From the IMG/VR virus record IMGVR_UViG_3300042891_001399: DNA of 64,000 bases; one strand, written 5' to 3'. Source of the DNA: an uncultured virus (IMG/VR IMGVR_UViG_3300042891_001399) (taxonomy: Duplodnaviria; Heunggongvirae; Uroviricota; Caudoviricetes). The notes beneath the pieces were generated by a model. That model made no database searches and was not told the DNA's origin. It worked only from the letters and a program-made list of their open reading frames with translations. Position 1 is the first letter of the stretch. Every line of letters begins with the position of its first letter. Both the position numbers and the translations under genes were made by a program. Positions 11,415 through 53,219 of this stretch are shown piece after piece.

Positions 11415-11633
11415 ATGAAACTTGACTTACACGGTATCAAACATGAAGATGTACCTAGGAAACTAGATGTTTTCTTTTGGGATATGATGAAGTCTGATAA
11501 ACATCAAGTAGAAGTAGTTACCGGTATAAGTTCAAGAATGAAAGAGATAGTTATTGATAATTGTAAAGACTATGGCTTTATTGTAAATGAAATGTATTTT
11601 AATCCAGGAAGCTTAATAATAAATTTAATTTAA
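11415..11633 (+). CDS. stand-alone Smr (MutS2-C-like) domain protein
   Basis: LDLHG, VVTG, NPG motifs. Confidence 0.75.
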   Translation: MKLDLHGIKHEDVPRKLDVFFWDMMKSDKHQVEVVTGISSRMKEIVIDNCKDYGFIVNEMYFNPGSLIINLI

Positions 11634-11639
11634 AATATA

Positions 11640-11671
11640 TTTGGGGAAGTAAAACTTTTGATATATATTTG
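11640..11671 (+). promoter_or_regulatory. Bacteroidota-type sigma-70 promoter (-33 TTTG / -7 TAnnTTTG)
   Basis: TTTG 11640-43, 20-nt spacer, TATATTTG 11664-71. Confidence 0.75.
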
Positions 11672-11691
11672 TAGTATAATAATTCAAGACA

Positions 11692-11736
11692 ATGATGTAG
11701 ATTAACACATATAAAATTTTAGGAAGACCTCCATAA
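11692..11736 (+). CDS. putative leader peptide MM*INTYKILGRPP with in-frame amber at codon 3
   Basis: ATG ATG TAG ATT AAC ... AGA CCT CCA TAA. Confidence 0.6.
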
Positions 11737-11803
11737 TAGAACTCTGACCGACCAGCTAAATTGGCACTCGGTTAGAAGACTATGATGGAGGTATTTTCAT
11801 TTT
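11723..11803 (+). promoter_or_regulatory. attenuator/terminator-like long hairpin overlapping the leader-peptide stop
   Basis: acctccat/atggaggt, atag/ctat, tctgaccga/tcggttaga, followed by attttcatttt. Confidence 0.65.
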
Positions 11804-11828
11804 AAACAAAAAATAAAAAAAAACAATT

Positions 11829-12188
11829 ATGAACAACTAGATTAACGAAACAAAATTAATTATCATCACACGAAGTGATATCACAAACGGCTACCAAGTA
11901 GTACAATCAACACATTCAATTGCTGACTTCGCTTTTGAATTTCCAGAAACATTTTCTAAATGGAAATCTGAATCAAATTCTATCATCTGTTTATCAGTTA
12001 AAAACGAATTTGAACTCAAAAAACTTTATCATAAGTATAAAGACCTAACTGATTCAGTTATGTTTTTTGAACCTGATGTAAATCAGTTTACCTCTTTATG
12101 CCTATATGGTACTCCTAAAACCCGTAAAAGCCTTTCTCACTTACCATTGGCTCTAAAAAATAAAACTACAGAAAATGAAACTATTTAA
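11829..12188 (+). CDS. PTH2-like peptidyl-tRNA hydrolase with in-frame TAG at codon 4 (absent from ORF track)
   Basis: MNN*INETKLIIITRSDITNGYQVVQSTHSIADF...SIICLSVKNEFEL...FFEPD...TSLCLYG...LSHLPL; no other stop in 119 codons. Confidence 0.75.
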
Positions 12189-12873
12189 TTTATTCAAAAA
12201 GAAAAAAGCTACACCAGTAGCACCAGTTAAAAATCACTTTAATAGTGAGACTATGACTTATACAATAAACAATAAAGAATATGCTATTTCTGATAGTCAA
12301 CTAATTAAAATTCAAGCCGTTGCTGAAGATGTCCATTTATATGGTTGGTCGCTTGAAGTTAGATGGAAAGACACAAAAGGCGAATGGTATAGTTGGATGA
12401 CCTATTGGAATCATCGTATCTACACAAGTAGGTCGTCTGCTTTAGATGCTGCAACTAAAGTATATCCAAGTTATCATGATGGATATGAGTGGAGAATTTT
12501 ACCTATTTATAAAATGACTGAACCAGAATATAGAGAATATAAAATTGACCAGTTGTTGATGCCAAATAGAGCAAATAAAGAACCAAAAATTTATGAGATT
12601 AAAGCTTGGAAAGTAAAAGAAGATTGTGAGATAAAATATGAAAGAAATAACATGACTTACAAATATTCAAAGAGTACTTTGTTTATTCAAATGGAAGATG
12701 GTAATATTAGATTAGTTAAAAATTCAACCGAATCTAATAGTATTATCTACTCACATGCTAGAATGATACTAGATGATCTTATTAAAAATGAACAAGTAGA
12801 AGAAGTAAATATCAAAAATGAAAAGTGGGCTCATCCGCACTTATGTAAAGAATTAAAACGTAAAATAAAATAA
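12175..12873 (+). CDS. hypothetical protein
   Basis: ORF overlapping PTH2-like gene end by 14 nt. Confidence 0.7.
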   Translation: MKLFNLFKKKKATPVAPVKNHFNSETMTYTINNKEYAISDSQLIKIQAVAEDVHLYGWSLEVRWKDTKGEWYSWMTYWNHRIYTSRSSALDAATKVYPSYHDGYEWRILPIYKMTEPEYREYKIDQLLMPNRANKEPKIYEIKAWKVKEDCEIKYERNNMTYKYSKSTLFIQMEDGNIRLVKNSTESNSIIYSHARMILDDLIKNEQVEEVNIKNEKWAHPHLCKELKRKIK

Positions 12874-12875
12874 TT

Positions 12876-13463
12876 ATGATGTAGATTACAAAACAAGAAT
12901 TAATTCAGAAAATGTCTGAATGTGAACAGACCAAAGGTCAGTCTGTTTTAGAACACGGTACTTCAGTTAAAAACTACTTATTTGATTTAATTAATCATTT
13001 AAGAAGTAACACACCATTACAATATGAATGGAAATTACCTGATTGGGTTCTAGAAAATAAAGACCTTCTTTTATCATCCCTACCAGATGATGAGACTTTA
13101 GAATTATACACAATCTATCACGATTGTGGTAAACCTTTTTGTTTAGAAATAGACGAGAATGGTAAAAGACACTTCCCAAATCATGCGGAAGTTTCTTATC
13201 AAATTTTTAACCAAGTATTTAATAACTCAGTTGCTGCTGATTTAATACTACACGATATGGATATTCATTTATTGAAGTCTGATGGTGTTGTAGAATTCTG
13301 TCAGAACCCTCACGCCTTAACTTTATTGTTAACGGGTTTAGCCGAGTTACATTCAAATTCTCAAATGTTCGGTGGTCTTGATTCAACCTCTTTCAAGATT
13401 AAATGGAAATGTATTAACCAAAGAGGTAAACAAATTATTAATCAATTAAAAAATAAAAACTAA
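12876..13463 (+). CDS. HD-domain phosphohydrolase with in-frame TAG at codon 3 (ORF track start 12912)
   Basis: H..YHDCGKP..HFPNHA..HDM motifs; ATG ATG TAG ATT ACA AAA CAA GAA TTA ATT CAG AAA ATG in frame, 2 nt after the upstream stop. Confidence 0.75.
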
Positions 13464-22283: not shown

Positions 22284-22356
22284 GGTCGGTTCGTCTACTG
22301 GATAGGACGGGTTTCTTTTCAGAAATCAAACAAAGGTTCGAATCCTTTACCGACTA
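22284..22356 (+). tRNA. tRNA-Glu-like with 8-nt anticodon loop (CUUUUCAG)
   Basis: Acceptor ggtcggt/accgact, D arm gtct..aggac, stem ggttt/aaatc, T arm aaagg-ttcgaat-ccttt. Confidence 0.85.
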
Positions 22357-22363
22357 CAAATAT

Positions 22364-22523
22364 GGCCCGTTCGTCTACTGGACTCGCAAGAGAAACAGAC
22401 GGTCAACAAAACGACTCCAAGGTGGGTTATGAGAAGGTGCCAATCCTCTCAAGTCGTGACCTGATGTTTAGGACGTCTAACTTTTCGGTTAGAAAACAGA
22501 GTGTTCGAATCCTCTACGGGCTA
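22364..22523 (+). tRNA. tRNA-Glu-like with 86-nt D-loop insertion and 8-nt anticodon loop (CUUUUCGG)
   Basis: Acceptor ggcccgt/acgggct, stem tctaa/ttaga, T loop ttcgaat; insert 22383-22468. Confidence 0.7.
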
Positions 22524-22531
22524 CTAAAAAT

Positions 22532-22674: not shown

Positions 22675-23535
22675 TTACATACGGAAACACTAACTTAGGT
22701 TAGTATGGAAGTAACGGCCGCTTATAGTCGTAAAATAAACCTTGAAAGGGGGATAAAGTGAACACAACTGCGAATTGTGTTTGCGTCTTGGGTAACCGAG
22801 GTCGAGTAAGCAAGCAGGATATCACTAAGCCTGAAGTACCGAGGGTAACTCCGTAGGGAAATGGATTGGTGACTGGGCAAGTGTAGATTGTTCAGTTGAG
22901 TTCGGAAGAGCAATAAGAATAACCTGTAGAAATTTTGCGAGAAGTGGTGACCAACCAGTTATCATCATCGCGAGTTTCAACTTGAGAGGTGTCTCAAAGT
23001 CGAAAGACAATTCATTGTACAGGTGGTGCTGTTGATGAACATCAATCACTCTACCAAGAGTGTAGATGAGCCGCAAGGTGAGTCGTGATGAAGATATCTT
23101 AAAGAGTTGTGATGGAGGCATCACACGGAGAAGTCCAGTATTCTTGAGGCCAAAAGCTTTGGGAGCTGAGAGGTGACCACTTCTTCGACACAATCTACAA
23201 GCACTAAAATTTACTTTTGAATGTAAAAACTTAAAACTAAATCGAAAGTGTTACCTAGTTACTGATAGAAAGGTGACTACTTAGTTATGGGATGTCCATA
23301 GCCACATAAGCTCGAAAGGCGGATGTGATTTCATCGAAAAACTTATAGGGCCTCGAAACCCGAATCAGCCTGCGAGGGTTGAGTAAGCAGAGTAAGTGGA
23401 GAGTATTCAGTAACTCAAGAAGTGGTTAGTCTAACTAACCGTCACTGTGACAATACCATTCAAAAGATGGTGGATAAAACTGGGAAACAATAATCCAGTC
23501 AAAGATGTCACACTGAACGTGTAATCTCAGCGTTT
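22675..23535 (+). ncRNA. large (~870 nt) structured ncRNA, GOLLD-like candidate
   Basis: GC-enriched, many tetraloop hairpins (gtc-gaaa-gac, cctt-gaaa-gggg, gcc-gcaa-ggt), directly downstream of tRNAs, ends at a terminator; family assigned by size and context only. Confidence 0.6.
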
Positions 23536-23536
23536 T

Positions 23537-23566
23537 AAGACTCAGCTTTTAGCTGGGTCTTTTTTA
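23537..23566 (+). terminator. intrinsic terminator of the RNA operon
   Basis: agactcagct-ttt-agctgggtct followed by a T tract. Confidence 0.8.
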
Positions 23567-26504: not shown

Positions 26505-26514
26505 AAAAAGCCTC

Positions 26515-53164: not shown

Positions 53165-53219
53165 AATATTAACCCTCTTAAATGAGGGTTTTTAATTTTA
53201 AATACTTATATTTGCCCAT

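What the first reader, a model, noticed from the sequence alone, without database searches (positions are those of the whole stretch)
11664..11803. Leader-peptide attenuator: readthrough peptide ends in RPP-stop within a terminator-like hairpin
Seen: promoter TATATTTG (11664-71), then leader MM*INTYKILGRPP-TAA-TAG. Its last codons (11727-11739) form the 5' arm of a long hairpin (acctccat/atggaggt 11785-92, atag/ctat, tctgaccga/tcggttaga) followed by attttcatttt. Established: Pro-Pro and Pro-stop contexts, and RAPP-type motifs, stall ribosomes. Inference: a ribosome stopping at the codon-3 UAG leaves the hairpin free to terminate, whereas a readthrough ribosome reaches RPP-stop, covers the 5' arm and antiterminates. 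This would add transcriptional control using the same UAG signal.
Basis: partly seen in the sequence, partly recalled or inferred. Interest (0 to 1): 0.88.

Follow-up and report, generated by a model that had tools for sequence, protein, structure and literature searches.

The report
Amber-codon-gated leader attenuator in huge phage
A short leader gene with a conserved UAG stop at codon 3 and a Pro-Pro-stop ending buried in a terminator hairpin probably lets a lake phage transcribe a peptidyl-tRNA-hydrolase-like gene only when UAG is being read through.

Summary
At 11692-11736 there is a mini-ORF, M-M-UAG-...-R-P-P-UAA. Its last codons form the 5' arm of a 77-nt hairpin (11722-11798) that is followed by a U-rich tail.

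The same layout occurs in 33 distinct relatives from huge lake phages:
- UAG is invariant at codon 3.
- Pro-Pro-stop is in frame in 32 of 33.
- The stretch between UAG and the Pro codons has no stop in frame 0 in any of the 33; frames +1 and +2 have stops in 26 and 32 of 33.
- The hairpin shows compensatory changes.
- Its tail matches ordinary terminators of these phages.

The gene behind it has a PTH2 (peptidyl-tRNA hydrolase) fold and carries an in-frame UAG at codon 2-9 in 88 of 88 distinct homologues. The next-but-one gene (HD domain) does the same in 41 of 41. In relatives without the leader, an unusual tRNA with a CUA anticodon usually sits in its place. Genomes that have the leader encode a CUA tRNA elsewhere. 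No genome-wide TAG recoding is seen.

Best reading: a ribosome-mediated attenuator that senses amber suppression. No experiment or transcript end supports this yet. It is a new variant of a known kind, with an engineered precedent.

The parts
11640..11671 (+). Promoter-like boxes: TTTG (11640-11643) and TAnnTTTG (TATATTTG, 11664-11671), 20 nt apart. The expected transcript start is about 11677-11680.
   Evidence: Sequence read. TAnnTTTG lies 25-45 nt before the leader ATG in 26 of 33 distinct leaders, and both boxes are present in 19 of 33. That this is the Bacteroidota promoter consensus is recalled, not tested.
11692..11736 (+). Leader ORF: ATG ATG TAG(11698-11700) ATT AAC ACA TAT AAA ATT TTA GGA AGA CCT CCA TAA. 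It reads M-M-[UAG]-INTYKILGRPP-stop. A second stop, TAG, follows at 11737-11739.
   Evidence: UAG is invariant. PP-stop is in frame in 32 of 33. The frame is open after UAG in 33 of 33. Spacer lengths are 37, 40 or 43 nt.
11722..11798 (+). Terminator-like hairpin. The effective stem is 11727-11792 (ACCUCCAU.AUAG ... CUAU.AUGGAGGU). The inner helix is CUCUGACCGA/UCGGUUAGA. The 5' arm contains the Pro-Pro-stop codons.
   Evidence: MFE, z = -4.8. (covariation on 33 sequences; 0 of 500 shuffles reach the observed values). All 33 relatives fold alike although their hairpin interiors are unrelated in sequence.
11793..11806 (+). U-rich terminator tail, AUUUUCAUUUUAAA.
   Evidence: pattern match at 11794-11806. 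The same tail follows plain G+C-rich hairpins in the window at 23561 (just after the GOLLD RNA match), at 53190 and on the minus strand at 26507, and in LR745206.1 and LR756502.1.
11807..11828 (+). A-rich spacer without a promoter-like box or Shine-Dalgarno sequence.
   Evidence: The spacer is conserved as AAACAAAAAA... in the alignment.
11829..12188 (+). PTH2-fold gene. It starts ATG AAC AAC TAG(11838-11840) ATT AAC. There is no canonical start for 73 codons after the TAG.
   Evidence: ATG..TAG is present in 88 of 88 distinct homologues. Pfam PTH2 scores 21.2 bits, below the cut-off of 23. A PDB profile search gives E 4.6e-5. The AF2 model has pLDDT 92. Foldseek gives TM about 0.7 to Pth2/Bit1.
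12876..13463 (+). HD-domain gene of the same cassette. It starts ATG ATG TAG(12882-12884) ATT ACA, with a conserved ATG nine codons after the TAG.
   Evidence: An in-frame ATG-x-TAG is present in 41 of 41 distinct homologues. phrog_14850 spans both PTH2-like and HD parts.

Best explanation
This is a ribosome-mediated transcription attenuator whose sensed codon is the amber stop UAG.

Proposed sequence of events:
1. Transcription starts about 12-15 nt before the leader ATG.
2. If UAG at codon 3 is read as stop, the ribosome leaves about 22 nt before the hairpin. The hairpin and its U-tail form, and RNA polymerase terminates near 11800-11806, before the PTH2-fold gene.
3. If UAG is decoded by a phage tRNA with a CUA anticodon, the ribosome runs on to Pro-Pro-UAA. 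That is a slow-terminating end, so the ribosome sits on the 5' arm (11722 to about 11748) and the outer stem next to the U-tail cannot form.
4. Transcription then continues into the PTH2-like gene, the 232-aa gene and the HD gene. Two of these three genes need the same UAG decoding at their own codon 3-4.

The cassette is therefore licensed twice by amber suppression, once at transcription and once at translation.

Shown by comparison: all sequence parts, their conservation, the open frame, the RNA structure and the link to CUA tRNAs.
Inferred: termination, stalling, relief by read-through, and which amino acid is inserted at UAG.
For: Anatomy.

The leader is conserved in 35 of 109 fetched loci plus the window, always directly before the PTH2-like gene. 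It occurs once per genome in the three large records searched.

Signs that the leader is translated beyond UAG:
- UAG is invariant.
- Frame 0 is free of stops in 33 of 33, against stops in 26 and 32 of 33 in the other two frames.
- Spacer lengths are 37, 40 or 43 nt in 32 of 33, whereas the CUCC-to-gene distance is spread over all three residues mod 3 (16, 12 and 5).
- PP-stop is in frame in 32 of 33, including one case with TGA instead of TAA.

Structure: 86.9% of cells are paired, 17 of 30 pairs have double changes, 0 of 500 shuffles reach this, and slid controls give 35-64%. The hairpin interiors are unrelated in sequence yet all fold to one long hairpin ending in GGAGG plus U-tail.

Terminator identity: the same UUUUUAUUUUAAA tail follows simple hairpins elsewhere in the window and in related genomes.

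The gene's own UAG: present in 88 of 88, followed by A in 81 and G in 7. The HD gene has it in 41 of 41.

Suppressor tRNAs:
- ARAGORN finds CUA tRNAs in 9 loci, including the leader-type loci L078 and L022.
- An atypical tRNA family with a CUA anticodon has 17 of 21 pairs covarying.
- That family gives 40 matches of 46 bits or more. 38 of them lie upstream of the gene on its strand, 26 within 300 nt. The other two are in the leader-type genomes LR745206.1 and LR756502.1.
- A canonical tRNA-CUA is present in the 385-kb relative.

From papers:
- Stop-codon occupancy in leader peptides changes attenuation in E. coli (PMC5373646, passages).
- An engineered UAG in a leader peptide converts suppression into transcriptional control (review PMC6412442, passage and figure legend).
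Against: - There is no experimental or transcript-end evidence. The RNA-library contigs laid on the region are fragmentary and cannot show ends.
- The window itself (64 kb) holds no CUA tRNA, and its whole genome is not held. A suppressor in this particular phage is inferred from relatives.
- One lineage (L003/L004) has lost PP-stop. Its frame runs through the hairpin to a TGA that ends 14 nt before the 3' arm, so stalling at PP-stop is not indispensable.
- The CCUCC/GGAGG stem would be conserved for structure alone, which weakens 'PP' as independent evidence.
- Most of the 33 leaders are close kin. Leader-type loci cluster on the protein tree (3 label changes, one origin not excluded), so the number of independent observations is well below 33.
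- Whether the host couples transcription and translation closely enough is unknown.
Confidence: 0.6

Rival explanations
1. Plain terminator or small RNA. The promoter, short transcript and hairpin make a stand-alone RNA of about 125 nt, or merely insulate the upstream operon. Ribosomes play no part, and the PTH2-like gene is transcribed by occasional read-through or from an unrecognised phage promoter.
For: The hairpin with its tail looks like other terminators of these phages. An ATATATA motif lies just upstream of the gene in tRNA-type loci and within the leader promoter, so it could be a phage-specific promoter element. No transcript data exist.
Against: This does not explain the invariant UAG, the frame kept open only in frame 0 (0, 26 and 32 of 33), the 3-nt steps in spacer length, or the in-frame stop right after CCN-CCN, including a TGA variant. 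No TAnnTTTG or ATATATA box lies between hairpin and gene in the window.
Confidence: 0.15
2. Hydrolase-sensing leader (autoregulation). The ribosome stalled at Pro-Pro-stop holds a peptidyl-tRNA(Pro) that release factors hydrolyse slowly. The PTH2-fold product, alone or with the HD protein, releases it. High hydrolase activity would shorten the stall, let the terminator form and shut the operon off. UAG is then only the entry gate, and the PP-stop is the true sensor.
For: PP-stop is conserved in 32 of 33. The regulated gene has a peptidyl-tRNA hydrolase fold. That C-terminal Pro-Pro slows termination is recalled knowledge.
Against: Free Pth2 enzymes act on dropped-off peptidyl-tRNA, not on ribosome-bound substrate (recalled). 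L003/L004 lack PP-stop. No catalytic test was done. This reading is compatible with the best explanation rather than exclusive of it.
Confidence: 0.1
3. Shared RNA operator. The motif AUG-N-UAG-AUU-A occurs at the leader, at the PTH2-like gene start and at the HD gene start. It would be a binding site for a protein or RNA (for example the cassette's own product or the unusual tRNA). UAG is conserved as part of that site and not as a codon. Translation of the genes would start by another route.
For: There are three copies of ATG..TAGATTA within 1.2 kb. ATT follows TAG in 75 of 88. A GAnnUUAA linker in the atypical tRNA resembles the motif.
Against: The codon after TAG can also be GTA, ATA, AAC, ACA or GTT, so only TAG plus a purine is constant, which fits a suppression context. 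No conserved alternative start exists after the TAG in the PTH2-like gene. The ATG before the TAG is always in frame, in 88 of 88. A CUA tRNA is encoded next to the gene in most leaderless loci.
Confidence: 0.07
4. Minigene device. M-M-stop and M-N-N-stop are true two- and three-codon minigenes, like lambda bar. They would produce peptidyl-tRNA drop-off and load the host's Pth, and the phage hydrolase would counteract or exploit this. On this reading no read-through is involved in the leader.
For: The very early stop codons lie before a Pth-like gene. That the lambda bar minigenes are toxic in Pth-deficient hosts is recalled, not taken from any call.
Against: This does not explain the open, frame-conserved extension to PP-stop. 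It does not explain why the stop is always UAG and never UAA or UGA. It does not explain the adjacent CUA tRNAs.
Confidence: 0.04

Closest known systems
Leader-peptide transcription attenuators in which the ribosome itself blocks the terminator (E. coli pyrBI type; trp/his/ivb types use alternative hairpins). Recalled, plus PMC5373646 passages.
   Same: A promoter-proximal mini-ORF, an intrinsic terminator before the structural genes, and an ORF end that overlaps the terminator's 5' arm, so that ribosome position decides whether the hairpin forms.
   Different: The sensed codon is a stop codon (UAG) at position 3, not a run of sense codons for a scarce amino acid or a measure of coupling to UTP-dependent pausing. 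No alternative antiterminator hairpin was found. The ORF ends in Pro-Pro-stop.
Engineered 'unnatural amino acid transcriptional switch' (Liu, Qi, Yanofsky and Arkin 2011, seen only as cited and summarised in review PMC6412442).
   Same: A UAG placed in a leader peptide makes downstream transcription depend on amber suppression.
   Different: That device is synthetic and built on tna/trp leaders; for tna it uses Rho-dependent termination at a rut site. Here the element is natural, phage-borne and intrinsic-terminator based, and the regulated genes also carry UAG.
TnaC and other stop-codon or Pro-dependent arrest peptides; C-terminal Pro-Pro termination stalling; RAPP-type arrest motifs (all recalled).
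   Same: A short nascent peptide that ends in Pro at a stop codon, with the stalled ribosome masking a termination signal.
   Different: No inducer is known. Only xPP-stop is conserved (R or K before it in 27 of 33). It lacks the Ala of RAPP, and arrest would occur at termination, not elongation. Stalling was not tested.
Stop-codon recoding with suppressor tRNAs as a timing switch in phages (Borges et al., preprint 10.1101/2021.08.26.457843, passages).
   Same: A phage-encoded CUA tRNA and in-frame TAG codons that hold back translation until suppression is active.
   Different: No genome-wide or late-gene recoding signal is seen here. UAG sits at a fixed position (codon 2-9) in just two genes and a leader of one cassette. 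A transcriptional layer is added. The words peptidyl, hydrolase, leader and attenuat- do not occur in that preprint.
prfB (RF2) autoregulation through an early in-frame stop codon (recalled).
   Same: An early in-frame stop codon in a gene for a translation-termination-related factor makes its expression report on how that stop is decoded.
   Different: prfB uses UGA with a +1 frameshift and senses RF2. Here the stop is UAG with in-frame read-through, and no slippery sequence is present (the codon before the TAG varies).

Membership tests
Ribosome-mediated (leader-peptide) transcription attenuator | A short ORF close behind a promoter and before the regulated genes. | tested here: met
   ORF at 11692-11736, 21 nt after the TAnnTTTG box. 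It is conserved and open in frame 0 only.
Ribosome-mediated (leader-peptide) transcription attenuator | An intrinsic terminator (stable hairpin plus U-tract) between the leader ORF and the structural gene. | tested here: met
   Hairpin 11722-11798, z = -4.8. Covariation. The tail is identical in type to other terminators. Termination itself was not measured.
Ribosome-mediated (leader-peptide) transcription attenuator | Ribosome position on the leader decides whether the terminator forms. | not testable with these tools
   The geometry fits. The UAG lies 22 nt before the hairpin, and the PP-UAA lies inside the 5' arm. Proof needs transcription-translation assays.
Ribosome-mediated (leader-peptide) transcription attenuator | Regulatory codon(s) in the leader that match the signal relevant to the regulated genes. 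| tested here: met
   UAG is invariant at leader codon 3. The same codon occurs at codon 2-9 of the PTH2-like gene in 88 of 88 and of the HD gene in 41 of 41.
RAPP-type / Pro-rich arrest peptides | A conserved arrest motif (R-A-P-P or similar) at the stall site. | tested here: not met
   Only xPP-stop is conserved. The residue before PP is R in 19, K in 8, V in 3, N in 1 and D in 1; one leader has no PP. No Ala is present.
RAPP-type / Pro-rich arrest peptides | Demonstrated ribosome stalling. | not testable with these tools
   Needs toeprinting or profiling.
PTH2 peptidyl-tRNA hydrolase family (Pfam PF01981), for the regulated gene | A match to the family model above the curated cut-off. | tested here: not met
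   21.2 bits against a cut-off of 23, E 3.5e-4, covering residues 5-69 only.
PTH2 peptidyl-tRNA hydrolase family (Pfam PF01981), for the regulated gene | The PTH2 fold. | tested here: met
   AF2 pLDDT 92. Foldseek top hits are 2zv3, 1wn2, 3erj, 1q7s and 1xty, with TM 0.69-0.74. The profile search against PDB hits Pth2 chains at E 4.6e-5.
PTH2 peptidyl-tRNA hydrolase family (Pfam PF01981), for the regulated gene | Catalytic residues and hydrolase activity. | not tested
   Invariant K5, H25, D29, E77-P78-D79 and T84 are listed, but they were not mapped onto known active sites.
Stop-codon-recoded (code 15-like) phage | Many genes interrupted by in-frame TAG, with coding density restored when TAG is read as sense. 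| tested here: not met
   In the window, reading TAG as sense gains no more ORF length than the TGA-as-sense control. Only the PTH2-like gene depends on TAG read-through. The same holds in samples of three related genomes.
Known RNA families (Rfam 15) | A match to any covariance model. | tested here: not met
   No match at gathering score in the window at this place, and none at E up to 1 in 11600-11900. ARAGORN finds no tRNA here.

The most novel reading that the evidence does not exclude
The cassette is a self-referential controller of amber suppression in phages that otherwise use the standard code. A phage tRNA(CUA), often with an unusual 8/4 cloverleaf and an extended D region, licenses a PTH2-fold hydrolase and an HD-domain enzyme in two ways: through UAG at their codon 3-4, and through a UAG-gated Pro-Pro-stop attenuator. 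These enzymes in turn act on the suppressor tRNA, on its peptidyl or aminoacyl forms, or on ribosomes stalled by read-through. The Pro-Pro-stop stalled complex is itself their substrate, so the leader would integrate both suppression level and hydrolase activity as a feedback loop.
Probability: 0.2. Interest if true: 0.92.

Novelty: new variant of a known kind. Interest (0 to 1): 0.8.

Why it matters
Natural attenuators are known to sense amino acids, nucleotides, tRNA charging and antibiotics. My four searches that bore on this question and the passages read turned up no natural one that senses stop-codon suppression, only an engineered one.

If the model is right, huge lake phages have a built-in reporter of whether UAG is currently read as sense, wired to enzymes of peptidyl-tRNA metabolism. 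That would give a direct experimental handle on three questions:
- how phages deploy suppressor tRNAs;
- why phages with the standard code keep them;
- how a code switch could evolve stepwise, starting from one cassette.

It also supplies a compact natural part (about 140 nt) for suppression-dependent gene control. In addition, it shows that gene callers will miss or truncate this gene family.

Tried and rejected
- Whole genome of the window: not held. A CUA tRNA in this phage could therefore not be sought beyond the 64 kb, where none is found.
- tRNA or known RNA at 11692-11831: none by ARAGORN, by Rfam at gathering score, or by Rfam at E up to 1.
- Genome-wide TAG recoding: rejected.
- TAGATTAAC as a dispersed repeat: 34 matches with up to 1 mismatch against 38 expected, so not enriched. 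Only 3 matches are exact.
- ATGNNNTAGATTAM across three related genomes: 6 matches against 9 in the reversed-pattern control, so there are no further cassettes of this exact form.
- More copies of the leader: the covariance model R1 finds one per genome. The weak extra hits are ordinary terminators.
- Simple terminator scan: did not flag the hairpin, because of the scan's loop limits.
- Frameshift or hopping at the UAG: rejected, because the codon before the TAG varies among 11 codons.
- Reinitiation at the AUU after the UAG: unlikely, because 13 of 88 have GTA, ATA, AAC, ACA or GTT there.
- Leader as a degenerate tRNA: model R2 does not hit it.
- RNA evidence: two metatranscriptome runs and two runs labelled RNA by guess hold only short contigs of relatives. 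One contig spans 11767-12278, across the terminator tail. Contigs cannot show ends or exclude DNA, so no conclusion is drawn.
- Earlier notes of this scan: none for this genome.
- Many CUA tRNA-like genes fail ARAGORN and the Rfam cut-off. They were accepted as tRNA-like only after alignment folding.

Full report
**1. The observation**

The window is AT-rich (31% G+C) and densely coding under the standard code. It carries a GOLLD RNA and tRNAs. Its nearest database relatives are uncultured phages of 635-642 kb. Public runs that hold it are lake-water metagenomes.

- TATATTTG at 11664-11671, with TTTG 20 nt upstream at 11640-11643.
- A mini-ORF, ATG ATG TAG ATT AAC ACA TAT AAA ATT TTA GGA AGA CCT CCA TAA TAG, at 11692-11739.
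- A long hairpin at 11722-11798 whose 5' arm contains CCU CCA UAA.
- A tail, AUUUUCAUUUUAAA, running to 11806.

The fold of 11664-11830 is -36.9 kcal/mol. Shuffles average -19.9 (sd 3.5), z = -4.8, and 0 of 200 fold as well.

**2. The gene behind it**

No standard-code ORF fills 11633-12175. Read with TAG as sense, 11829-12188 gives a 119-residue protein that starts MNN[TAG]INETKL. After the TAG there is no ATG, GTG or TTG for 73 codons.

The protein is a distant relative of peptidyl-tRNA hydrolase 2:
- Pfam PF01981 scores 21.2 bits, just under the cut-off of 23.
- A profile of 38 homologues hits Pth2 chains in the PDB at E 4.6e-5.
- The AlphaFold2 model has pLDDT 92.
- The model superposes on archaeal Pth2 and human Bit1 with TM about 0.7.

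In the window this is the only real gene that needs TAG read-through. Reading TAG as sense gains no more ORF length than the TGA control.

**3. Relatives**

I fetched 109 loci that encode homologues.
- PTH2-like gene: in 88 of 88 distinct loci with at least 40 nt of upstream sequence, the gene begins with ATG, 0-7 further codons, and an in-frame TAG. The base after the TAG is A in 81 and G in 7. The next codon is ATT in 75, GTA in 6, ATA in 3, AAC in 2, ACA in 1 and GTT in 1. The codon before the TAG varies among 11 codons. This holds down to 46% protein identity.
- HD-domain gene: the gene two places downstream in the window (12876-13463) begins ATG ATG TAG ATT ACA. In 41 of 41 distinct homologues an in-frame ATG-x-TAG precedes it.
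- Fusions: in some relatives the PTH2-like and HD parts are fused into about 300 residues, and phrog_14850 spans both.

An early UAG is therefore a deeply conserved property of two genes of one cassette. It is not a property of the genome code.

**4. The leader in relatives**

A covariance model of the leader (R1) finds it in the window and in 35 of the 109 loci, always directly before the PTH2-like gene. It occurs once in each of three large related genomes. There are 33 distinct sequences.

- Translation signature:
  - T7 A8 G9 (the TAG) is invariant.
  - The distance from ATG to the invariant CUCC is 37 nt in 23, 40 nt in 8, 43 nt in 1 and 33 nt in 1. The distance from CUCC to the gene ATG falls in all three residues mod 3 (16, 12 and 5).
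  - Between the UAG and the Pro codons, frame 0 contains a stop in 0 of 33 sequences, frame +1 in 26 and frame +2 in 32.
  - 32 of 33 end in Pro-Pro-stop: TAA in 31 and TGA in 1. The residue before is R in 19, K in 8, V in 3, N in 1 and D in 1.
  - The exception (L003/L004) reads on through the hairpin to a TGA that ends 14 nt before the 3' arm.
- Structure:
  - All 33 fold into one long hairpin with base CCUCC/GGAGG followed by UUUUUAUUUU, although the interiors are unrelated in sequence and length.
  - On the alignment, 86.9% of cells are paired, against 35-64% when the 3' partners are slid.
  - 17 of 30 pairs show changes on both sides, and 0 of 500 shuffles reach the observed measures.
  - For example, the third base of the second Pro codon pairs as A-U in 12 and U-A in 10.
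- Terminator identity: R1's weak extra hits are ordinary gene-end hairpins with the same tail. The window has such terminators at 23561 (just after the GOLLD RNA match), at 53190 and on the minus strand at 26507.
- Promoter: TAnnTTTG lies 25-45 nt before the leader ATG in 26 of 33. Together with TTTG 17-23 nt upstream it occurs in 19 of 33. No such box lies between hairpin and gene.

**5. What stands in the leader's place elsewhere**

In most leaderless loci a tRNA-like gene with a CUA anticodon lies upstream on the same strand, often behind a promoter of the same form.
- ARAGORN calls CUA tRNAs in 9 loci (10 genes). These include the leader-type loci L078, where the tRNA ends 22 nt before the leader ATG, and L022, which has two.
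- Many others escape ARAGORN and the Rfam cut-off.
- Sixteen of them align to a cloverleaf with an 8-bp acceptor stem, a 4-bp T stem, an 8-nt linker before the D stem and a loop holding CUCUAAA or UUCUAAA. 17 of 21 pairs show compensatory change.
- A model of this family (R2) gives 40 matches of 46 bits or more in 85 sources.
- 38 of those lie upstream of the PTH2-like gene, 26 of them within 300 nt. The other two are in LR745206.1 and LR756502.1, whose PTH2-like genes carry the leader.
- The 385-kb relative with the leader (89% protein identity) has a canonical tRNA-CUA.
- Samples of these three genomes show no general TAG recoding, and the motif ATGNNNTAGATTAM is not enriched in them.

**6. 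Mechanism**

The parts fit a ribosome-mediated attenuator with UAG as the sensed codon.

Geometry (footprint size recalled, about 12-15 nt downstream of the A site):
- A ribosome released at UAG (11698-11700) ends about 10 nt short of the hairpin, which then forms and terminates.
- A ribosome that decodes UAG reaches Pro-Pro-UAA (UAA at 11734-11736) and covers 11722 to about 11748. That is the whole outer 5' arm, the part that must pair next to the U-tail.

C-terminal Pro-Pro is known to slow termination (recalled), which would hold the ribosome there while the polymerase passes. Altered ribosome occupancy at leader stop codons does change attenuation in E. coli (PMC5373646, passages). A purine after UAG is the context that favours suppression over termination in E. 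coli (recalled), and it is present in 88 of 88 here.

The cassette thus demands amber decoding twice. Shown: anatomy, conservation, open frame, structure and the tRNA link. Inferred: termination, stalling and relief.

**7. Comparison with known systems, and novelty**

The closest natural kind is leader-peptide attenuation of the pyrBI type, where the ribosome occludes the terminator. The closest device is synthetic: a UAG engineered into tna/trp leaders to make transcription depend on amber suppression (seen only in review PMC6412442).

Phage stop-codon recoding with suppressor tRNAs is known. The preprint I searched does not contain the words peptidyl, hydrolase, leader or attenuat-. Four full-text searches bearing on this question found no natural amber-sensing attenuator and no UAG-gated Pth2 gene. 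This covers only the library searched.

I file the element as a new variant of a known kind.

**8. Caveats**

- There are no transcript ends. RNA-library contigs are inconclusive.
- The window's own suppressor tRNA has not been seen.
- Many of the 33 leaders are close kin. Leader-type loci cluster on the protein tree (3 label changes, one origin not excluded).
- CCUCC conservation serves structure as well as Pro-Pro.
- One lineage lacks PP-stop.
- The function of the PTH2-fold and HD proteins, and hence the purpose of the circuit, is unknown.

Noticed in passing
window 12876-13463: The HD-domain gene starts ATG ATG TAG ATT ACA, nine codons before its conserved ATG. An in-frame ATG-x-TAG precedes the gene in 41 of 41 distinct homologues. 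It is a second UAG-gated gene in the cassette.
   Followed up: yes
L058:1355-1438, L094:326-409, L077:1263-1346 and others; L161:838-921; L162:883-965: A family of atypical tRNA-like genes with a CUA anticodon. They have an 8-bp acceptor stem, a 4-bp T stem, an 8-nt GAnnUUAA linker before the D stem, and a 9-nt anticodon loop or mismatched closing pair. 17 of 21 pairs covary. ARAGORN and the Rfam cut-off mostly miss them. The likeness to 8/4 'allo-tRNAs' is recalled only.
   Followed up: partly
window 22284-22357 and about 22365-22525: ARAGORN reports a tRNA with a two-base anticodon, that is, a 6-nt anticodon loop UUUUCA. Just downstream, a second tRNA-like sequence with a similar loop (UUUUCG) seems to carry an insert of about 100 nt in its D region (seen by eye).
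   Followed up: no
window 23126-23533: A full-length GOLLD RNA (272 bits) next to the tRNA genes, followed by a terminator with the UUUUUUAUUUUAAA tail.
   Followed up: no
L017, L025, L026/L027/L105, L102, L104: The PTH2-like and HD parts are fused into one ORF of about 300 residues behind a single early TAG. In the window a 232-aa gene of unknown family (12175-12873) lies between them.
   Followed up: partly
window 11415-11633: The gene upstream of the leader has a weak Smr-domain match (22.1 bits, below the cut-off of 25.7). In LR745206.1 the upstream gene ends like a class II aminoacyl-tRNA synthetase (seen by eye). The neighbourhood is translation-related.
   Followed up: no
window 11692-11710 and relatives: The minimum-free-energy folds place the leader UAG in the loop of a small 4-7-bp hairpin (AUGAUG/ACAU, or AUGU/ACAU in relatives) in most leaders. 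The conserved ACAUAU after it may reflect this. Not evaluated.
   Followed up: no
tRNA-type loci, 10-25 nt before the PTH2-like ATG (e.g. L058, L012, L024): A conserved AATATATAA motif lies directly upstream of the gene where no leader is present. A similar ATATATA lies inside the leader promoter. It may be a phage-specific promoter element.
   Followed up: no
LR745206.1 (W01) tRNA cluster loci: ARAGORN reports one tRNA with a four-base anticodon, GUAG, among the 28 anticodon types seen in the sampled loci.
   Followed up: no
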